A stretch of 64,000 bases of DNA from a virus (IMGVR_UViG_3300001517_000002:49448-113447); one strand, 5' to 3'. Shown: positions 43,258-50,205, counted from the stretch's first letter. Numbers and translations are program-made. Notes: generated from the sequence alone by a model not told the origin.

Positions 43258-43286
43258 TTGACAACGTACAAAATGTATGGTAAAAT
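43258..43286 (+). promoter_or_regulatory. sigma-A promoter with three GTACAAAATG boxes
   Basis: TTGACA-17 bp-TAAAAT; boxes at 43211, 43238(-) and 43266. Confidence 0.85.
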
Positions 43287-43491: not shown

Positions 43492-43719
43492 ATGAGTAGA
43501 GTTAGAGATTTAACAGGGCAGAAGTTCGGCAGACTTCGTGTTCTTGAGCGAATGGAAAACGCAACAGACGGTCACGCACAGTGGCTTTGTGAGTACAAAT
43601 GTAATAACAGATTAATTGTTACAAGTCAATCGTTAACTTGTCATAAAACAAACAGTTGCGGTTGCTATCGTAATGAAAAAAACAAGGCACGTTTCAGTGG
43701 TCAGGAGGTTGTATTATAA
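43492..43719 (+). CDS. N-terminal module of AP2/HNH-type endonucleases (truncated)
   Basis: DLTGQKFGRLRVL...WLC...SCGC; no nuclease domain follows. Confidence 0.7.
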   Translation: MSRVRDLTGQKFGRLRVLERMENATDGHAQWLCEYKCNNRLIVTSQSLTCHKTNSCGCYRNEKNKARFSGQEVVL

Positions 43720-43883
43720 TCAAAAGGAGGTGAATATCCAATGGGACTGGCGGCAGCAATATCAAACGAAATACAATTAAGAGATAAAGGAGAATATGGA
43801 ATTTTACATCATATGCCATACTTGTATTTACTTTGTCTCGCTTATAAAATGAATTTAACAATATGAAATAGGAGGATTTTTTT

Positions 43884-44429
43884 ATGAAAAAAATAATATC
43901 AATTATAATTTCAGCAGCAAGTATTATTACAATCAGTCCCATGTCTGCAAGGGCAGTCAATGGATTTAGACCTAATGGGAGACTCAAGCTTGACATTAAT
44001 GCGGATGAGTATATCAACGCCGTTGATGCGTCTATTGTCCTTTCTGAATATGCTAAATCCGCAACAGGTGAGGGCGAGTTCACAAGGACAGAAAAATTTG
44101 TAGCTGATTTCAACGATGACGGAAAAATTGATGCAGTTGATGCTTCTGGAATCCTTGCAGTATATGCTCAGAATAGTAGTAGGGATTGCAAGGAATATCC
44201 TATTACAACATTGGAATTTTATAGTATGATAAAAGTTGGTCATGACTGGATTGCTTGTGGTAACTCTTTCCTTTCTTACGAAGAAGCAATGATTGCTCTT
44301 GAATGTGGTAAAGAGAACCTTGAAGAAAAACGTCAGACTTATTCTGAGTGTAACATTCAGATGGTGTCAACAATCATGACAGACTTACCGCAGACAGAAA
44401 TCAAGTATGTATATAGAGAAGTAAAATAA
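43884..44429 (+). CDS. secreted type I dockerin-domain protein
   Basis: Signal peptide ending ARA; duplicated Ca-binding loops DINADEYINAVDAS and DFNDDGKIDAVDAS. Confidence 0.88.
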   Translation: MKKIISIIISAASIITISPMSARAVNGFRPNGRLKLDINADEYINAVDASIVLSEYAKSATGEGEFTRTEKFVADFNDDGKIDAVDASGILAVYAQNSSRDCKEYPITTLEFYSMIKVGHDWIACGNSFLSYEEAMIALECGKENLEEKRQTYSECNIQMVSTIMTDLPQTEIKYVYREVK

Positions 44430-44443
44430 TAGGAGGGCTAATT

Positions 44444-45403
44444 ATGTCAGCCAATCTTAATAACCAGAAGTTATGTAATGTTATTGACATATCAAGGCGA
44501 GAATATGATTTTAATGCTTTCATTCCAAGTTCCCATGACAGTTTGTCAGAACAAGAACTTACAGAAATTGAACGAGTAGAAGCTGCGCAGAGAGCTGGTC
44601 AAGGAGATGACGAGTTACCTGTTGGGATATTTAATGACCTTCTAAAATATTTTTTAGATAACCATGATTATCGAAGTGCATTATGGATAACTTTGCAAGC
44701 TAACACTGGATTAAGATATGTTGACATAAGTAAATTTAGGAAGATAGAACTTATAAATGAGAACAATTTATTCCGTGAGTCGATACTTGATAGCGAACAG
44801 AAAACAGGTAAAAAAAGAATTAACTTTATTAATGATGCTATTAAAATGGCGACATTATTATATTTGTGGGACAACCCAGAAATTAAATTACTCGACTATC
44901 TTATTGTTGCTGATAAGAACGCACCCAACAGAGGCTATAAGAAAGAAACGTACATTGATAGTAGAGGAAATAAAAGGGTAAAAAGAGAGAATGGCAAATA
45001 TGTTTATGTTCTCGATTCCAATGGAAATAAAATTATTGAACCACTTTCAATACAATGCGCAAATGAAATTATAAAAAAGGCTCTTGTTGATGGTCTGGGA
45101 ATAGCAATAAGAAATAGTCAGGGGAAAGATGGTTATTTAAAAATAGCTACTCATTCCCTTAGAAAAACATATGCAGGGGCAGTAGTAGACTATTATACAA
45201 GACAGTTTGACACAAACAAAGAGTATGCTCATGCTGCTGCAATGGAACAGCTACAATATGACTTAAATCATAGTAGTCGAAAAATGACATATCACTATAT
45301 CGGTGATTATGTTGAAACTAAACGCTCAATAAATATGAGCATGAATTTAGGGATAGATGTACTCAAACCAGTTTTTGATGTAGAAAAGGAAAAGAGGAAG
45401 TAA
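44444..45403 (+). CDS. tyrosine recombinase
   Basis: TGLRYVD (R), KTGK, HSLRK (HxxR), LNHSS...TYHY (H, Y): catalytic residues intact. Confidence 0.92.
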   Translation: MSANLNNQKLCNVIDISRREYDFNAFIPSSHDSLSEQELTEIERVEAAQRAGQGDDELPVGIFNDLLKYFLDNHDYRSALWITLQANTGLRYVDISKFRKIELINENNLFRESILDSEQKTGKKRINFINDAIKMATLLYLWDNPEIKLLDYLIVADKNAPNRGYKKETYIDSRGNKRVKRENGKYVYVLDSNGNKIIEPLSIQCANEIIKKALVDGLGIAIRNSQGKDGYLKIATHSLRKTYAGAVVDYYTRQFDTNKEYAHAAAMEQLQYDLNHSSRKMTYHYIGDYVETKRSINMSMNLGIDVLKPVFDVEKEKRK

Positions 45404-45907: not shown

Positions 45908-46921
45908 ATGTTATACATGATAGAGGAATACATAAAAGAATATCCCAAAAGACCGCTACAAGCTCTTGAGAAATTTAGAAATTCTCCTTTAAATCTACAT
46001 GAAATGTCATTGAGTGAATTAAACGAAGCAGTTTCAAAATGGAAACCATTGTCAGCAAGAACAGCATATAATCAAAGAAAAGATATTTTAAATTATTTTA
46101 AATGGTTATTGTCCAAAGGGATTAAAGTCGATTTATCTATTGTTGATAAGATTGAAATACCAATTTCCGAGGTAAAGTATTTAATTTTTTCTACACAAGA
46201 TATTATACATTACTATAATTTGCTTTTTTCTGTTTTAACAAATCAGGCTATAAAGAGTGGTAGTCAGTTTAGTGCTAACAGTTATTTGATGAGCTATGCT
46301 GCTGGCATACTTGGATTTCACGGATTGACCGATGAACAAATAATAGAACTTGATTTAACTGACATTACAACAGAAGGTGTTAAAGGATATAATCTTCCTT
46401 TGACCAAAGAAGATATTAACATTTTAATGTCATATAAAGATGTTACCACTTTAGCAAACCATATGCCGCTAATAGGTAGTAAATATATTCGTTCTTCTCG
46501 TGGAATTGACAACATTGATGGAGCATTTTTATCTCGTCCACTTTGGCGATTAAAGCTGCCAGAGGAATATGGCTATTTAAAAAATTTATTAAGAGTGCAA
46601 AATCTTTATCAGCTTGGAGTGTATAATCGAATATATGAGCTTGAGAAAAGCACAGGGGAAATCGTTACATTAGGTGGGATTACGCCCTTGTGGTTTAAAA
46701 AAATTATTGGCAAAGCAGAAATGGCTATTACTATCAACAAAAAAAGATATATACAATACAAACATGACCGTGAAGAAGCACAGTCGGACATCCAGAAAGA
46801 AATAATTACAAGCGAATATATATCAAAGCAAGAATTAGAAAAGAAGTATGATGAGCTTTTGCAACGCCGAAGGGAGCTTGATAAAGAAATTCAAGAATTA
46901 CAAGAAATGGTTAAAAAATAA
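45908..46921 (+). CDS. degenerate recombinase-fold protein, MrpR/YopR-like repressor candidate
   Basis: SAM-like ILNYFKW; box I-like LGFHGLTDEQIIELDLTDI lacking the catalytic Arg; no HxxR. Confidence 0.55.
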   Translation: MLYMIEEYIKEYPKRPLQALEKFRNSPLNLHEMSLSELNEAVSKWKPLSARTAYNQRKDILNYFKWLLSKGIKVDLSIVDKIEIPISEVKYLIFSTQDIIHYYNLLFSVLTNQAIKSGSQFSANSYLMSYAAGILGFHGLTDEQIIELDLTDITTEGVKGYNLPLTKEDINILMSYKDVTTLANHMPLIGSKYIRSSRGIDNIDGAFLSRPLWRLKLPEEYGYLKNLLRVQNLYQLGVYNRIYELEKSTGEIVTLGGITPLWFKKIIGKAEMAITINKKRYIQYKHDREEAQSDIQKEIITSEYISKQELEKKYDELLQRRRELDKEIQELQEMVKK

Positions 46922-47076: not shown

Positions 47077-47151
47077 TAGGGTATAGCAAAGAGGTAATGC
47101 AACGGGCTTTGACCCCGTAATTCGCCAGTTCAAATCTGGCTGCCCTAACCA
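47077..47151 (+). tRNA. tRNA-Gln(TTG)
   Basis: ACGGG-CT TTG AC-CCCGT; CCA. Confidence 0.88.
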
Positions 47152-47304
47152 TCGTTCCAACAGGTTAAAAGGAAGCCAAAAGCAATGAGCCTGACATCAA
47201 GCTTCGGGGCGAGGCATACGTTCTATAGGGGATAATGTGACAGTGCAAACTCCAATATATGCTTAATGACTCACTGTATGACGGCTCGGAAAGACGAGCA
47301 TAAC

Positions 47305-47364
47305 GACTCACTTGATAATAGACCTCCTCGTGGTGTGAGTTGGGTAACGCTAAGATATTATCAA
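47305..47364 (+). ncRNA. minimal HDV-like (theta-type) ribozyme
   Basis: P1 GACTCAC/GTGAGTT, P2 TTGATAATA/TATTATCAA, P3 ACC/GGT, L3 TCCTCGT, GG, GCTAA with the catalytic C. Confidence 0.85.
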
Positions 47365-47415
47365 ATTTCTTTTACTATTCTTTTTCTGATTGCGGTGAGA
47401 AATCACCGCACAAAT

Positions 47416-47490
47416 GGGAGTGTAGCTCAGTGGTAGAGCAATTGCCTTTTAAGCAATAGGTCGAGGGTTCGATGCCCTTCACTCTCACCA
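47416..47490 (+). tRNA. tRNA-Lys(TTT)
   Basis: ATTGC-CT TTT AA-GCAAT; CCA. Confidence 0.93.
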
Positions 47491-47495
47491 ATTAT

Positions 47496-47581
47496 CTGGA
47501 CGTAGCTCAGTTGGGAGAGCACTACAATAGTTTATGATAGAAATGTAGAGGTCGCTTGTTCAAGCCAAGCCGTTCAGACCA
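47496..47581 (+). tRNA. tRNA-like RNA with a 17-nt anticodon loop (identity undetermined)
   Basis: Acceptor, D and T arms and CCA intact; CTACA-[17 nt]-TGTAG. Confidence 0.75.
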
Positions 47582-47814
47582 AGGGGTTAACCCCCTCATC
47601 AATATATACCATAGATACAAACAACTCTGGCTTCCTCTGAGATGAAGGTTGAAACAATAATGGCGTGGTCGCTTCTTTAGAGATGATATGGCTCAGAAGT
47701 CCTTTGCTTCAGCATAAAAGACCTTAACTAAATGACAATGATATATTGGCGCATTGGGGTTGTGATGATAATAAAGGAGGGAAAACATCACATAGTTTGT
47801 ATCAAAATAAAAAT

Positions 47815-47900
47815 GCTCCTGTGGTGGAACTGGCAGACGCAAGGGACTTAAAATCCCTCGGGTGAAACCCGTATCGGTTCGAGTCCGATTAGGAGCACCA
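47815..47900 (+). tRNA. tRNA-Leu(TAA)
   Basis: AGGGA-CT TAA AA-TCCCT; long variable arm; CCA. Confidence 0.93.
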
Positions 47901-48107
47901 ATACTTCAAAAGCGGTGTGGCAACATTATTTAAATAAGGGAAACGATGGGTATACGAAACTTATTTGGTAATGATAAAATGGATAAAATGTAAAGCCATC
48001 AAATCGTTCTTGACTATGGGCAAACCTGTAGAAGTAGCTACCTACGGAAACCAGCAAAAAGAACACAAATCTTGCATAAGTTACACGCTCTTATGCAAGC
48101 AAATCAT

Positions 48108-48184
48108 CTGGATTTAACTCAGTTTGGTAGAGTGCTTGCTTTGGGAGCAAGATGCCGCAGGTTCGAGTCCTGTAATCCAGACCA
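48108..48184 (+). tRNA. tRNA-Pro(TGG)
   Basis: CTTGC-TT TGG GA-GCAAG; CCA. Confidence 0.92.
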
Positions 48185-48389
48185 ATTGGATTAAGAAGAT
48201 GCAATATCAAATGAATAGGAATGTATATCGTGGTGGAGGTAGACTGTGGTTTACGCAAAGGACGAGAATTATTTAATTCAATATTTGATAGAGGTGGTTG
48301 CATTGCCTCCGCTTAATCCATTACCAAAATCTTCGTTATGTCTTTGGCATAACTGACCTCCTTCAGCCCGTAGTTGCTACGGGCAATAT

Positions 48390-48465
48390 GGGACAGTAGC
48401 AGAATTGGCATATGCGGTAGTCTCAAAAACTACGTCATTTATGGGTTCGACTCCCATCTGTCCCA
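48390..48465 (+). tRNA. tRNA-Leu(CAA), short variable region, no encoded CCA
   Basis: GTAGT-CT CAA AA-ACTAC; GGGACAG/CTGTCCC acceptor stem. Confidence 0.8.
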
Positions 48466-48605
48466 CTACTACATTTTTATAGGAGGAATAACCAAATGAA
48501 TAAATGCGTTTGTTGCGGAGCTATAATTCCAGAAGGAACTTTGGTCTGCTTTATTTGTTTGCATAAAAATAATTTTTATAAAATCAATTATAGGAGGTAA
48601 TCTTA

Positions 48606-49103
48606 ATGACCAACAATGAAAAGATTCAAAAAGCAGAACAGCTTATCGCAGAAGCTAATGCACTTCTTAATGAAGTTAAATCTACCTATGATAATAAGAA
48701 AGATGTGATTGCTAAGTATAAAGAAGATTATTGTAAAGGTAAGAAATATTATATTAATGATGATAGTAATACCAGTTGGATTGTCACTCCTAATGCGTAT
48801 ACATTTAAAAACACTTCAAATCCTTATAAATTTTATCTTACAGAAGAACTTGCTGAACAGGCAAAGAAACTGAAAGACTTCAATGATAAACTGCTGGCTT
48901 TTAAATATTGTTATGATTTAGATTATAAGCCCAGTTGGGATAACGATTGTCAAAAGTATTATATTTATTATAGTACAGTTGATAACGAATACCACGCTGA
49001 CGGTTTATCTTCTATGCGTGAACCATTAGTTTATTTTAGCACCAAGGAAATCGCACAGAAATGTGCAGACTGGCTTAATTCATTTAAGGAGGTTGAAAGT
49101 TAA
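48606..49103 (+). CDS. hypothetical protein
   Basis: AGGAGGT RBS; VYFSTKEIAQKC. Confidence 0.8.
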   Translation: MTNNEKIQKAEQLIAEANALLNEVKSTYDNKKDVIAKYKEDYCKGKKYYINDDSNTSWIVTPNAYTFKNTSNPYKFYLTEELAEQAKKLKDFNDKLLAFKYCYDLDYKPSWDNDCQKYYIYYSTVDNEYHADGLSSMREPLVYFSTKEIAQKCADWLNSFKEVES

Positions 49104-49107
49104 TCTG

Positions 49108-50205
49108 GTGGCAAACAGAGCGTATAAATTTAGGCTATATCCTAATGAAGAACAAAAGATATTATTTGCCAAAACCTTTGGTTGTGTTAGATTTATCTAC
49201 AATCAAATGCTTTCGGATAAGATAGCACATTATAAAGAAACTGGAACGAAGCTCAACAATACTCCTGCTCAATACAAGAAAGAATTTGAGTGGCTTAAAG
49301 AAGTTGACAGCCTTGCTCTCGCAAACGCACAAATGAATTTACAGACCGCTTATAACAATTTCTTCAGGACACCAAAAGTTGGATTTCCTAAATTCAAGAG
49401 TAAAAAGAGAGACAGGGATAGTTATACTACAAACAATCAAAATGGTACAGTAAGTATTATTGAGAAGAAATTAAGGTTGCCAAAGGTTGGTCTTGTAAAA
49501 ATGGTGCAACACAGAATAATTTCAGACAACGAAAAGATTAAGTCTGCTACAATTACAAGAACACCATCGGGCAAATATTATGTTTCTATTCTTGTGGAAT
49601 ATGATAAGGTTGTTCCCAATGTAGAATTATCAAGGGATAAGGCGATAGGATTAGATTATGCAAGTCATAGCTTTTATGTCGATAGTCAAGGCAGAGAAGC
49701 AGATTATCCCAAATTCTATCGTAAAGCACAAGCTAAACTGGCTCACGAACAGCGCAAACTTGCTAATATGAAGTATGGTAGTAATAACTACTACAAACAG
49801 AAGATTAGGGTTGCGAGAGTTCACGAAAAGGTTGCAAATCAGCGTTTGGATTGGATTCATAAACTCAGTACACAATTAGCAAATGAATACGATATAGTTT
49901 GTGTGGAAGATATAAATATGCAAAATATGGCGAGGTCATTAAAATTAGGAAAGTCAACTAATGACAATGGCTTTGGAATGTTCAGAGATATTCTTTCCTA
50001 CAAACTCACTGACAGAGGAAAAGCATTTGTAAAGATTGATAAGTGGTTTCCGTCAAGCAAGATGTGTAGGCATTGTGGTTCTATCAACCACGAGCTTGCG
50101 CTATCAGACAGAGTTTGGACTTGCAGTTGCGGTACTACAATCAATCGAGATGAAAATGCTGCGATAAACATAATGAACGAAGGTTTGAGAATGTTATTCT
50201 CATAA
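49108..50205 (+). CDS. tnpB: IS200/IS605-family RNA-guided endonuclease TnpB
   Basis: AYKFRLYP HTH; RuvC D (GLDY), E (VEDI), D (RDENAA); CRHC/CSC zinc ribbon; probable GTG start at 49108. Confidence 0.93.
   Translation: MANRAYKFRLYPNEEQKILFAKTFGCVRFIYNQMLSDKIAHYKETGTKLNNTPAQYKKEFEWLKEVDSLALANAQMNLQTAYNNFFRTPKVGFPKFKSKKRDRDSYTTNNQNGTVSIIEKKLRLPKVGLVKMVQHRIISDNEKIKSATITRTPSGKYYVSILVEYDKVVPNVELSRDKAIGLDYASHSFYVDSQGREADYPKFYRKAQAKLAHEQRKLANMKYGSNNYYKQKIRVARVHEKVANQRLDWIHKLSTQLANEYDIVCVEDINMQNMARSLKLGKSTNDNGFGMFRDILSYKLTDRGKAFVKIDKWFPSSKMCRHCGSINHELALSDRVWTCSCGTTINRDENAAINIMNEGLRMLFS

What the first reader, a model, noticed from the sequence alone, without database searches (positions are those of the whole stretch)
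43884..44429. Phage-encoded secreted dockerin: a route into the host cellulosome or cell surface
Seen: Sec signal peptide, two symmetric Ca-binding dockerin repeats (DINADEYINAVDAS..YA, DFNDDGKIDAVDAS..YA; about 43986-44180) and an unknown about 80-aa C-terminal domain, with no CAZyme module. The gene has a normal RBS and lies between an operator-controlled promoter and the recombinase gene. Known: AVDAS-type dockerins are typical of Ruminococcus and bind cohesins of scaffoldins. Inference: the phage plugs cohesins to mask a receptor (superinfection exclusion), displaces cellulosomes to detach the host from fibre, or displays an effector.
Basis: partly seen in the sequence, partly recalled or inferred. 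Interest (0 to 1): 0.85.

Follow-up and report, generated by a model that had tools for sequence, protein, structure and literature searches.

The report
Secreted dockerin protein of rumen-type phages
A complete 113-kb phage genome encodes a small exported protein made of a genuine Ruminococcus-type dockerin (the calcium-dependent plug that clips proteins onto cell-surface cohesin sockets) and an unknown 80-residue domain. The gene is kept under strong selection across a lineage of about 100-kb phages, so these phages probably dock a protein onto the infected cell's surface, most likely to keep other phages off.

Summary
ORF 43884-44429 (+) encodes 181 aa: a Sec-type signal peptide, a complete symmetric two-loop dockerin and an 80-aa beta-beta-alpha-beta-beta domain. 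The dockerin scores 35.8 bits on Pfam Dockerin_1 (cut-off 22.9). Its best structural match is the R. flavefaciens ScaH group-4 dockerin, 8AJY (Z 8.5). The C-terminal domain has no detectable relative. The window belongs to a complete 113,447-bp virus record with terminal repeats.

The protein founds a family of about 40 clusters, all 170-200 aa with the same architecture. Members lie on contigs of 95-113 kb and at the same locus in related viral contigs. It is under purifying selection (dN/dS 0.04). I did not find it in 161 Ruminococcus genomes. The nearest cellular dockerins are almost all from Ruminococcus.

Separately, Ruminococcus prophages carry dockerins on their distal tail protein, so cohesins are probable phage landing sites.

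My best reading (0.45) is an early-expressed, exported protein that docks on a host cohesin to mask or guard the surface against other phages. Cohesin binding, host identity and the role of the C-terminal domain are untested. This scan has noted virion-borne phage dockerins on other DNA before. A secreted, non-virion form is a new variant.

The parts
43258..43286 (+). Sigma-70-type promoter-like site (TTGACA-17-TAAAAT, TG-extended). It is the nearest strong candidate upstream. No terminator-like site lies on the + strand between it and the end of the recombinase gene.
   Evidence: 11 of 12 matches. Function as a promoter is inferred.
43492..43719 (+). 75-aa HNH-endonuclease-like gene in the same putative transcription unit, conserved next to the dockerin locus in relatives.
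   Evidence: phrog_374, E 1.2e-18; 69% identical gene in L044.
43870..43875 (+). Shine-Dalgarno AGGAGG, 8 nt before the start codon.
   Evidence: sequence
43884..44429 (+). Gene for the 181-aa exported dockerin protein (P0001), stop codon included.
43884..43955 (+). Signal peptide, residues 1-24 (MKK, hydrophobic core, A-R-A before the predicted cut).
   Evidence: sequence; K3 and A24 conserved in alignments A1 and A2; pLDDT below 50. No dedicated predictor was run.
43980..44183 (+). Dockerin module, residues 33-100. Calcium loops are at 43992-44027 (D37-D48) and 44106-44141 (D75-D86), each followed by a helix. Ala-Val occupies the recognition positions 10 and 11 of both repeats.
   Evidence: Pfam 35.8 bits; 8AJY_B Foldseek E 1e-4, rmsd 1.2 over 68 columns; VIA Z 8.5, rmsd 1.6 over 75 aa; phmmer against PDB E 4.8e-9.
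44184..44426 (+). C-terminal domain, residues 101-181. Predicted strand-strand-helix-strand-strand fold. Conserved F112, Y132-E133 (the YEE motif) and Y177. No known relative.
   Evidence: AF2 pLDDT above 90 in the whole-protein model; fold searches give best Z 5.0 and nothing significant; a domain HMM hits only proteins of this family.
44444..45403 (+). Tyrosine-recombinase-like gene immediately downstream. It is the conserved neighbour of the dockerin locus in related phages.
   Evidence: phrog_216, E 8.8e-15; Pfam Phage_integrase is below its cut-off. Orthologues at 37-43% identity in L044, L046 and L003.

Best explanation
The gene encodes a small protein that the phage makes the infected cell export.

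Proposed steps:
1. It is transcribed with neighbouring small early-type genes from a host-type promoter.
2. It is exported through Sec and its signal peptide is removed after residue 24.
3. Its two-loop, internally symmetric dockerin binds calcium and plugs into a cohesin on the surface of a cohesin-bearing host, probably a rumen or hindgut Ruminococcus.
4. That cohesin is probably a cell-anchored, ScaE-like socket rather than an enzyme-carrying scaffoldin.
5. Docking occupies the socket and displays the compact 80-residue C-terminal domain.

The most likely purpose is to remodel the infected cell's surface against other phages, that is, receptor masking or superinfection exclusion. Phages of these bacteria carry dockerins on their tail tips and so probably land on cohesins.

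Shown here: the domain architecture, the phage origin, retention across the lineage and purifying selection.
Inferred: export, timing, cohesin binding, the host and the exclusion role.

I put about 0.8 on 'exported cohesin-binding protein' and about 0.4 on the exclusion role.
For: Architecture.

Phage origin:
- The record is a complete 113,447-bp virus genome with terminal repeats, one dockerin and no Pfam cohesin.
- Portal, terminase, tail collar and endolysin genes are present.

A lineage gene rather than a stray fragment:
- All 33 aligned homologues have the same three parts.
- The C-terminal-domain HMM hits 39 of 162 fetched proteins, and every one is 115-197 aa.
- Members of clusters down to 40% identity lie on contigs of 95-113 kb.
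- The gene sits just upstream of the same recombinase in L002, L044, L046 and L003.
- dN/dS is 0.04 overall, 0.035 for the dockerin and 0.033 for the C-terminal domain.
- It was not found in 161 Ruminococcus-genus genomes, in 34 genome loci or in 50,697 deposited phage genomes.

Host type:
- 27 of the 34 nearest cellular dockerins are labelled Ruminococcus.
- Five such genomes hold 15-35 dockerins that match the family profile at up to 100 bits.
- A syntenic structural module lies in a Ruminococcus-genus assembly that has 9 cohesins.
- Terminase relatives in Lachnospiraceae genomes come with no credible dockerin match: none in two genomes, one marginal 18-bit hit (E 0.0066) in the third.

Cell-surface target: the only solved dockerin matched by sequence is the ScaH group-4 dockerin. 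It binds the sortase-anchored ScaE cohesin and is symmetric.

Cohesins as phage landing sites:
- Distal tail protein (Dit)-dockerin fusions occur in a tape-measure-Dit-Tal gene order.
- One such prophage is 100% identical to a Ruminococcus-genus genome, and relatives occur in 50 of 161 genomes.
- Those genomes carry 9-11 cohesins.

Arms-race signature: over a longer distance the C-terminal domain changes much faster than the dockerin (dN 0.37 against 0.066).

Locus: in L044 and L061 the gene lies near a minus-strand HTH regulator and the recombinase. By my own knowledge, not checked here, exclusion genes of Gram-positive temperate phages often sit in such a place.
Against: - No binding data exist and no cohesin partner has been identified.
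- The recognition dyad is Ala-Val, not the Gly-Arg of ScaE binders, so ScaE-type targeting is only an analogy.
- The host is not demonstrated. No CRISPR-type match was seen, though only 2 candidates per genome were scored. The related contig in the Ruminococcus assembly holds only phage genes, so it could be a binning artefact.
- This phage's own tail proteins carry BspA-type LRR ends and no dockerin, so masking cohesins would not protect against its own kind.
- A pure plug would not obviously need a conserved extra domain.
- Early timing rests only on a consensus promoter and gene position.
- Lysogeny of this phage is unproven.
Confidence: 0.45

Rival explanations
1. Host-directed surface effector (a moron or auxiliary gene). 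The dockerin only tethers the protein to the cellulosome or cell surface. The C-terminal domain then changes host physiology. For example, it could compete with ScaB or CttA-type dockerins to loosen the cell from fibre, alter adhesion, or inhibit or protect a surface enzyme. This would benefit phage production or spread, or a carrier-state host.
For: The C-terminal domain is conserved and under purifying selection, so it does something specific. Group-4 dockerins in R. flavefaciens carry proteases and unknown domains, and have been proposed to act in cell-surface structuring rather than fibre digestion. About 19 host proteins have the same layout of signal peptide, N-terminal dockerin and other modules.
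Against: No enzyme, CBM or inhibitor fold is recognisable. The domain is absent from the 161 Ruminococcus genomes searched, so it is not a borrowed host function. Its fast divergence relative to the dockerin fits a conflict interface better than a housekeeping host target.
Confidence: 0.25
2. Pure high-affinity cohesin plug in which the C-terminal domain is a structural helper. Like an X-module in X-dockerin dyads, it would pack on the dockerin to stabilise it or bias one binding face, and it would have no target of its own.
For: The whole-protein model has pTM 0.77 with both domains at high confidence. That is compatible with a fixed two-domain unit, although interdomain contacts could not be inspected. 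The conserved residues are mostly hydrophobic or aromatic, which looks core-like. X-dockerin dyads are known in the ScaE-binding ScaB and CttA proteins.
Against: Known X-modules are N-terminal and immunoglobulin-like, not C-terminal alpha/beta domains; the only X-dockerin matches cover the dockerin part and not the C-terminal domain: 4IU3/4IU2 at Foldseek E 0.15-0.19 and 4IU2_B at VIA Z 4.9 over model residues 32-108. Group-4 dockerins such as ScaH bind ScaE without any helper module.
Confidence: 0.15
3. The dockerin-like module has no cohesin partner. As in many non-cellulosomal dockerin-bearing proteins, it would serve as a calcium-binding or other interaction module. The protein would then act in the medium or on another surface polymer.
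For: Dockerin_1 domains occur widely outside cellulosome producers; the control genomes B. thetaiotaomicron and M. acetivorans also give hits. The phage has no Pfam cohesin. The host is unproven.
Against: The module is closest, at 36-55% identity, to dockerins of cohesin-rich Ruminococcus genomes and to a solved cohesin-binding dockerin. It keeps the full symmetric two-helix layout typical of dual-mode cohesin binders. The dockerin is by far the slowest-evolving part.
Confidence: 0.1
4. Non-functional passenger: a host gene fragment recently captured by the phage and not used.
For: The gene lies in a rearranging region of small accessory genes.
Against: dN/dS is 0.04. The reading frame is intact in every copy. 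The gene is retained at the same locus down to about 37-46% identity in genomes of 95-113 kb. No cellular counterpart has the C-terminal domain.
Confidence: 0.03

Closest known systems
R. flavefaciens FD-1 group-4 (type III, symmetric) dockerins, e.g. the ScaH dockerin bound to the ScaE cohesin (PDB 8AJY)
   Same: The only solved dockerin matched by sequence (E 4.8e-9, about 36-43% identity) and the best structural match (Z 8.5, rmsd 1.6 A over 75 residues). Both have two complete calcium loops, internal two-fold sequence symmetry and no X-module. Both sit on non-enzymatic proteins.
   Different: The recognition dyad is Ala-Val in both repeats rather than Gly-Arg. The protein is phage-encoded. 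Its dockerin is N-terminal, directly after the signal peptide, and is followed by a novel domain. The cohesin partner is unknown.
Surface-anchored superinfection-exclusion proteins of Gram-positive temperate phages (e.g. the Ltp lipoprotein of Streptococcus thermophilus phage TP-J34 and lactococcal Sie proteins). Cited from my own knowledge, not checked here.
   Same: A small exported phage protein held at the cell surface by an anchor plus a compact effector part. The gene lies in the accessory region near the recombinase and regulator genes.
   Different: The anchor would be a non-covalent dockerin-cohesin bond rather than a lipid or a transmembrane segment. There is no sequence or fold similarity. 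Neither exclusion nor lysogeny has been shown.
Virion-borne phage dockerins: the Dit-dockerin fusions found here in Ruminococcus prophages, and the fibre-tip dockerins noted earlier in this scan
   Same: The same DAS-type Ruminococcus dockerin class. Two Dit dockerins group with this family in a weakly supported tree. These also suggest that phages exploit host cohesins.
   Different: Those are structural tail proteins without signal peptides and presumably serve adsorption. This protein is exported from the infected cell and is not part of the particle.
Host 'signal peptide - dockerin - unknown domain' proteins of R. flavefaciens (118 dockerin proteins with unknown regions; 19 with N-terminal dockerins; Rincon et al. 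2010, PMC2930009)
   Same: The same general layout and dockerin class.
   Different: The C-terminal domain was not found in any Ruminococcus genome searched. The family tracks a phage lineage.

Membership tests
Dockerin (Pfam PF00404 Dockerin_1) | Score at or above the curated gathering threshold | tested here: met
   35.8 bits against a cut-off of 22.9; 37.9 bits in the six-frame search. All 33 family members hit the model.
Dockerin (Pfam PF00404 Dockerin_1) | Two 12-residue EF-hand-like calcium loops with Asp/Asn at positions 1, 3, 5, 9 and 12, each followed by a helix | tested here: met
   D37-N39-D41-N45-D48 and D75-N77-D79-D83-D86. Helices 46-60 and 84-98 in the model.
Dockerin (Pfam PF00404 Dockerin_1) | Dockerin three-dimensional fold | tested here: met
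   8AJY dockerin chains: Z 8.5, rmsd 1.6 A over 75 aa (8ajy_D) and Foldseek E 1e-4 (8ajy_B). Further dockerins at Z 5-6.4. This rests on a predicted model.
Dockerin (Pfam PF00404 Dockerin_1) | Calcium-dependent binding to a cohesin | not testable with these tools
   No binding assay or complex prediction was available, and the partner cohesin is unknown.
R. flavefaciens group-4 dockerins (binders of the ScaE cohesin) | Internal sequence symmetry of the two repeats | tested here: met
   12 of 21 positions are identical between the repeats, including A-V-D-A-S in both.
R. flavefaciens group-4 dockerins (binders of the ScaE cohesin) | Gly-Arg dyad at the cohesin-recognition positions of the repeats | tested here: not met
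   Ala-Val in both repeats, against G-R in the first repeat of the ScaH dockerin (alignment; role of the dyad). It is therefore not filed as a ScaE binder, only as the nearest class.
R. flavefaciens group-4 dockerins (binders of the ScaE cohesin) | Closest sequence relatives are group-4 rather than group 1, 3, 5 or 6 dockerins | tested here: inconclusive
   Among solved structures only the ScaH dockerin is matched by sequence. A full comparison with all FD-1 dockerin groups was not made.
Phage superinfection-exclusion proteins (Ltp or Sie type) | Blocks adsorption or DNA entry of incoming phage when expressed in the host | not testable with these tools
   Needs a cultured host and phages.
Phage superinfection-exclusion proteins (Ltp or Sie type) | Exported, surface-retained small protein encoded in the accessory or lysogeny region | tested here: inconclusive
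   A signal peptide and a dockerin anchor are present. The gene lies next to a recombinase, and near an HTH regulator in L044 and L061. Lysogeny of this phage is unproven.
X-module-dockerin dyad | Immunoglobulin-like X-module N-terminal to the dockerin | tested here: not met
   The extra domain is C-terminal and alpha/beta. It shows no fold match to X-modules; 4IU2 and 4IU3 align only over the dockerin.
Viral auxiliary carbohydrate-active enzymes | A glycoside hydrolase, esterase, lyase or CBM module | tested here: not met
   No such Pfam hit in this protein or in 33 homologues at E up to 1.

The most novel reading that the evidence does not exclude
Cell-surface cohesins of Ruminococcus are a contested phage entry point. 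Temperate siphophages land on them with dockerins built into their distal tail protein. A lineage of about 100-kb phages makes the infected cell secrete a free dockerin protein that closes or guards those sockets. This would be receptor masking by mimicry of a cellulosome assembly module, with a fast-evolving novel domain as the guard.
Probability: 0.3. Interest if true: 0.85.

Novelty: new variant of a known kind. Interest (0 to 1): 0.62.

Why it matters
Cohesin-dockerin pairing is known as the assembly code of cellulosomes and of some cell-surface structures. It is not known as something phages use from inside an infected cell.

A conserved, secreted phage dockerin family, together with dockerins on the tail tips of Ruminococcus prophages, would make cohesins candidate phage receptors and exclusion targets in key fibre-degrading gut and rumen bacteria. 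That bears on how phages shape fibre digestion.

It also offers small natural dockerin-plus-domain units as tools for surface display. And it gives a concrete, testable handle on Ruminococcus phage-host recognition, for which I know of almost no experimental data.

Tried and rejected
Genomic context of most family members could therefore not be read. I used contig lengths and viral or metagenome loci instead.
- tblastn against 50,697 deposited phage genomes gave no match. PHROGs gave no family.
- The word-based search restricted to the C-terminal domain found only near-identical proteins. The ESM Atlas gave no usable hit.
- Fold searches of the whole model and of the C-terminal domain alone, against PDB and BFVD, gave nothing above generic alpha/beta similarity. 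The best was Z 5.0 to a topoisomerase fragment. RuBisCO small-subunit-like, BMC, ClpS and YebC rows scored Z 3-5. The domain-alone model had a poor last strand.
- A three-sequence C-terminal-domain alignment (A6) was misaligned and was discarded.
- Alignment A2 was too diverse for pattern scans.
- The metagenome scan added only one full-length relative, on a 3.1-kb contig.
- Host identification through the phage's TnpB-like transposase failed. The best matches, about 61%, were spread over Ruminococcus, Lachnospiraceae and others.
- A DNA search of 20 kb of the window against 161 Ruminococcus genomes gave tRNA matches and one related phage contig, but no spacer-like hit. Only 2 candidates per genome were scored.
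- Weak C-terminal-domain hits in Ruminococcus genomes turned out to be YebC-family housekeeping proteins and are chance matches.
- Longer proteins that seemed to align past the dockerin (P0107, P0112, P0135) do not carry the C-terminal domain.
- The careful phylogeny did not finish. Only a quick, weakly supported tree is reported.

Full report
**What is there.**
ORF 43884-44429 on the + strand encodes 181 residues. An AGGAGG lies 8 nt before the ATG.

Residues 1-24 read as a Sec signal peptide: MKK, a hydrophobic core, then A-R-A. K3 and A24 are nearly invariant in homologues, and this stretch is disordered in the model. I had no signal-peptide predictor, so this is a reading of the sequence.

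Residues 33-100 are a dockerin:
- Pfam Dockerin_1 scores 35.8 bits against a cut-off of 22.9.
- Both 12-residue loops have the full set of Asp/Asn ligands.
- Each loop is followed by a helix.
- The two repeats share 12 of 21 positions, including A-V-D-A-S.

An AlphaFold2 model built on 33 homologues has mean pLDDT 87.4 and pTM 0.77. Its dockerin superposes best on the R. flavefaciens ScaH dockerin in PDB 8AJY. Foldseek gives E 1e-4 and rmsd 1.2 A. VIA gives Z 8.5 and rmsd 1.6 A over 75 residues. This is also the only solved chain matched by sequence (E 4.8e-9).

Residues 101-181 form a confident strand-strand-helix-strand-strand domain. It matches no Pfam or PHROG family in this protein. No Pfam family beyond dockerin and EF-hand models recurs among the 33 relatives. 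It has no convincing structural neighbour, whether searched within the whole model or alone. The best score is Z 5.0, on generic alpha/beta folds.

**It is a phage gene.**
The window is bases 49448-113447 of a 113,447-bp IMG/VR record with direct terminal repeats, rated complete. The record has portal, large terminase, exonuclease, a 2039-aa ORF of tape-measure size (not scanned against any library), tail collar and M15 endolysin genes on the minus strand, and seven tRNAs.

The dockerin gene lies in the + strand block of small genes. The nearest strong promoter-like site is TTGACA-17-TAAAAT at 43258-43286. No terminator-like site follows it on the + strand before the end of the recombinase-like gene that starts 14 nt after the dockerin stop. 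The genome has this one dockerin and no Pfam cohesin.

**A family that tracks a phage lineage.**
Sequence searches found full-length relatives of 172-197 aa down to about 32% identity. An HMM of the C-terminal domain hits 39 of the 162 proteins fetched. Every hit is a short protein; the full-length ones share the signal-peptide, dockerin and domain layout.

Members of at least five clusters, down to 40% identity, sit on contigs of 95-113 kb, the size of this genome. None sits on a chromosome-sized contig.

In IMG/VR:
- L002 (97% identity) is fully syntenic.
- L044 (57-kb contig; 46% identity over 117 aligned residues by BLASTP, 43% over 153 codons) shares at least eleven other genes with the window at 26-76% identity. 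It keeps the gene a few kb upstream of the same recombinase, with local rearrangement.
- L046 (106 kb) and L003 are further relatives. At the same locus they encode a variant with an N-terminal zinc-ribbon-like stretch, a hydrophobic segment, the dockerin and a shorter tail domain.

Against L002, dN/dS is 0.04 overall, 0.035 for the dockerin and 0.033 for the C-terminal domain. Against the 68%-identical L061 copy, the dockerin has dN 0.066 and the C-terminal domain 0.37. Both parts are therefore constrained, but the C-terminal domain diverges much faster.

I did not find the family in:
- 161 genomes of the genus of R. flavefaciens 007c (with the caveat that only 21 candidates per genome were scored, whose weak hits are YebC proteins);
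- 34 bacterial loci;
- deposited phage genomes.

A quick tree of the dockerin module places all 33 family members in one weakly supported group, nested among Ruminococcus dockerins.

**Which host and which socket.**
The nearest cellular dockerins are almost all from rumen or gut Ruminococcus assemblies: 27 of 34 loci, up to 55% identity. Five such genomes each hold 15-35 dockerins that match the family profile at up to 100 bits, many with the same N-A-V-D-A-S wording.

A 37-kb contig in one Ruminococcus-genus assembly (G009) carries a syntenic portal-to-tape-measure module at 27-58% identity. That contig holds only phage genes, so it may merely be co-binned. The assembly has 9 cohesins.

More distant terminase relatives (53-61%) lie in Lachnospiraceae and Lacrimispora genomes. 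Two have no match to the family profile and the third only a marginal 18-bit hit. A Ruminococcus-type, cohesin-bearing host is therefore likely but not shown.

According to the literature read here, ScaH-type group-4 dockerins are symmetric and bind in two orientations. They attach their proteins directly to the sortase-anchored ScaE cohesin. They sit on proteases and unknown proteins rather than cellulases. However, their Gly-Arg recognition dyad is Ala-Val in the phage protein. I therefore treat 'cell-anchored cohesin' as the nearest analogy, not as a finding.

**Phages of these bacteria carry dockerins on their tails.**
While collecting relatives I found dockerins fused to the distal tail protein (Dit) in several siphovirus contigs: L004, L006, L042/L043, L048 and L049.
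- In L043 the gene lies between the tape-measure and Tal genes.
- That prophage is 100% identical to a stretch of a Ruminococcus-genus genome (G028) and 90% identical in another (G151). Parts of it recur in 50 of 161 genomes.
- Those two hosts have 9-11 cohesin modules.

Earlier notes of this scan report dockerins at the tips of phage fibres on other DNA, one also nearest to the ScaH dockerin. Cohesins are therefore plausible phage landing sites. This gives a rationale for a secreted dockerin that occupies them.

**Mechanism and rivals.**
I commit to the following. The protein is exported early, docks calcium-dependently on a host surface cohesin, and thereby masks or guards that surface against other phages. 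I give about 0.8 to the molecular part and about 0.4 to the exclusion role.

Weak points:
- nothing about binding or the host was tested;
- this phage's own tail proteins end in BspA-type leucine-rich repeats, not dockerins;
- a simple plug would not need a conserved second domain.

Rivals, in order of my weighting:
1. A host-directed surface effector, acting on adhesion or cellulosome remodelling.
2. A plug whose C-terminal domain is only a stabiliser.
3. A dockerin-like module with no cohesin partner.
4. A useless passenger, which the conservation data contradict.

**Novelty.**
Full-text searches found no paper describing a phage-encoded secreted dockerin, nor dockerin-tailed Ruminococcus phages. 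The nearest was a mention of dockerin domains on a putative archaeal virus contig. The library covers only open-access papers. Dockerins themselves are well known, and this scan has seen virion-borne ones. I therefore rate this a new variant of a known kind.

Noticed in passing
L043:7554-8288 (also L042, L004:3551-4510, L006:7461-8468, L048:7503-8276, L049:7533-8276): Distal tail proteins (Dit, phrog_33) of siphovirus contigs carry a Dockerin_1 module. In L043 the gene lies between the tape-measure and Tal genes. The L043 prophage is 100% identical to a Ruminococcus-genus genome (G028:C12) and 90% identical in G151. Parts recur in 50 of 161 genomes, and those hosts have 9-11 cohesins. This suggests adsorption to cohesins.
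   Followed up: partly
L046:7857-8435 and L003:3888-4478: Relatives of this phage (106-kb and 24.7-kb contigs) encode a variant at the same locus, upstream of the phrog_216 recombinase. It has an N-terminal CxxC...CxxC stretch, a hydrophobic segment, a dockerin and a shorter tail domain. In L046 it follows an anti-repressor (Ant) gene.
   Followed up: partly
L170:235-1758 (-) and L169:19235-19975 (-), i.e. G000 about 38.2-39.8 kb: Two proteins in the tail-fibre region of this phage end in BspA-type leucine-rich repeats (Pfam LRR_5). This module is also common on dockerin proteins of R. flavefaciens. They are candidate receptor-binding parts.
   Followed up: no
window 49063-50205 (+): A 380-aa transposase-like gene (phrog_506, E 7e-120) sits just after the cluster of five tRNA genes (47077-48466). 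Its best cellular relatives, about 61%, are spread over Ruminococcus, Lachnospiraceae and others.
   Followed up: partly
window 44444-45403 and 45908-46921 (+): A tyrosine-recombinase-like gene and a conserved 337-aa gene lie side by side. Both are retained at 37-53% identity in L044, L046 and L003. L044 and L061 also have a minus-strand HTH regulator here that the window lacks. Whether the phage integrates, resolves dimers or is strictly lytic is open.
   Followed up: no
cluster of P0001: One near-identical family member lies on a 217,989-bp contig, about twice the genome length. This may be a concatemer or an assembly duplication.
   Followed up: no
L085 and L086 (Lachnospiraceae bacterium COE1 scaffold; Lacrimispora sp. 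HJ-01 chromosome): Large-terminase relatives at 53-61% identity lie inside large bacterial scaffolds or chromosomes. Related head-packaging modules therefore exist as prophages in Lachnospiraceae, and those genomes show no match to the dockerin family.
   Followed up: partly
window 43741-43866 (+): A 41-codon ORF with a strong AAAGGAGG ribosome-binding site lies directly upstream of the dockerin gene. It was not examined further.
   Followed up: no
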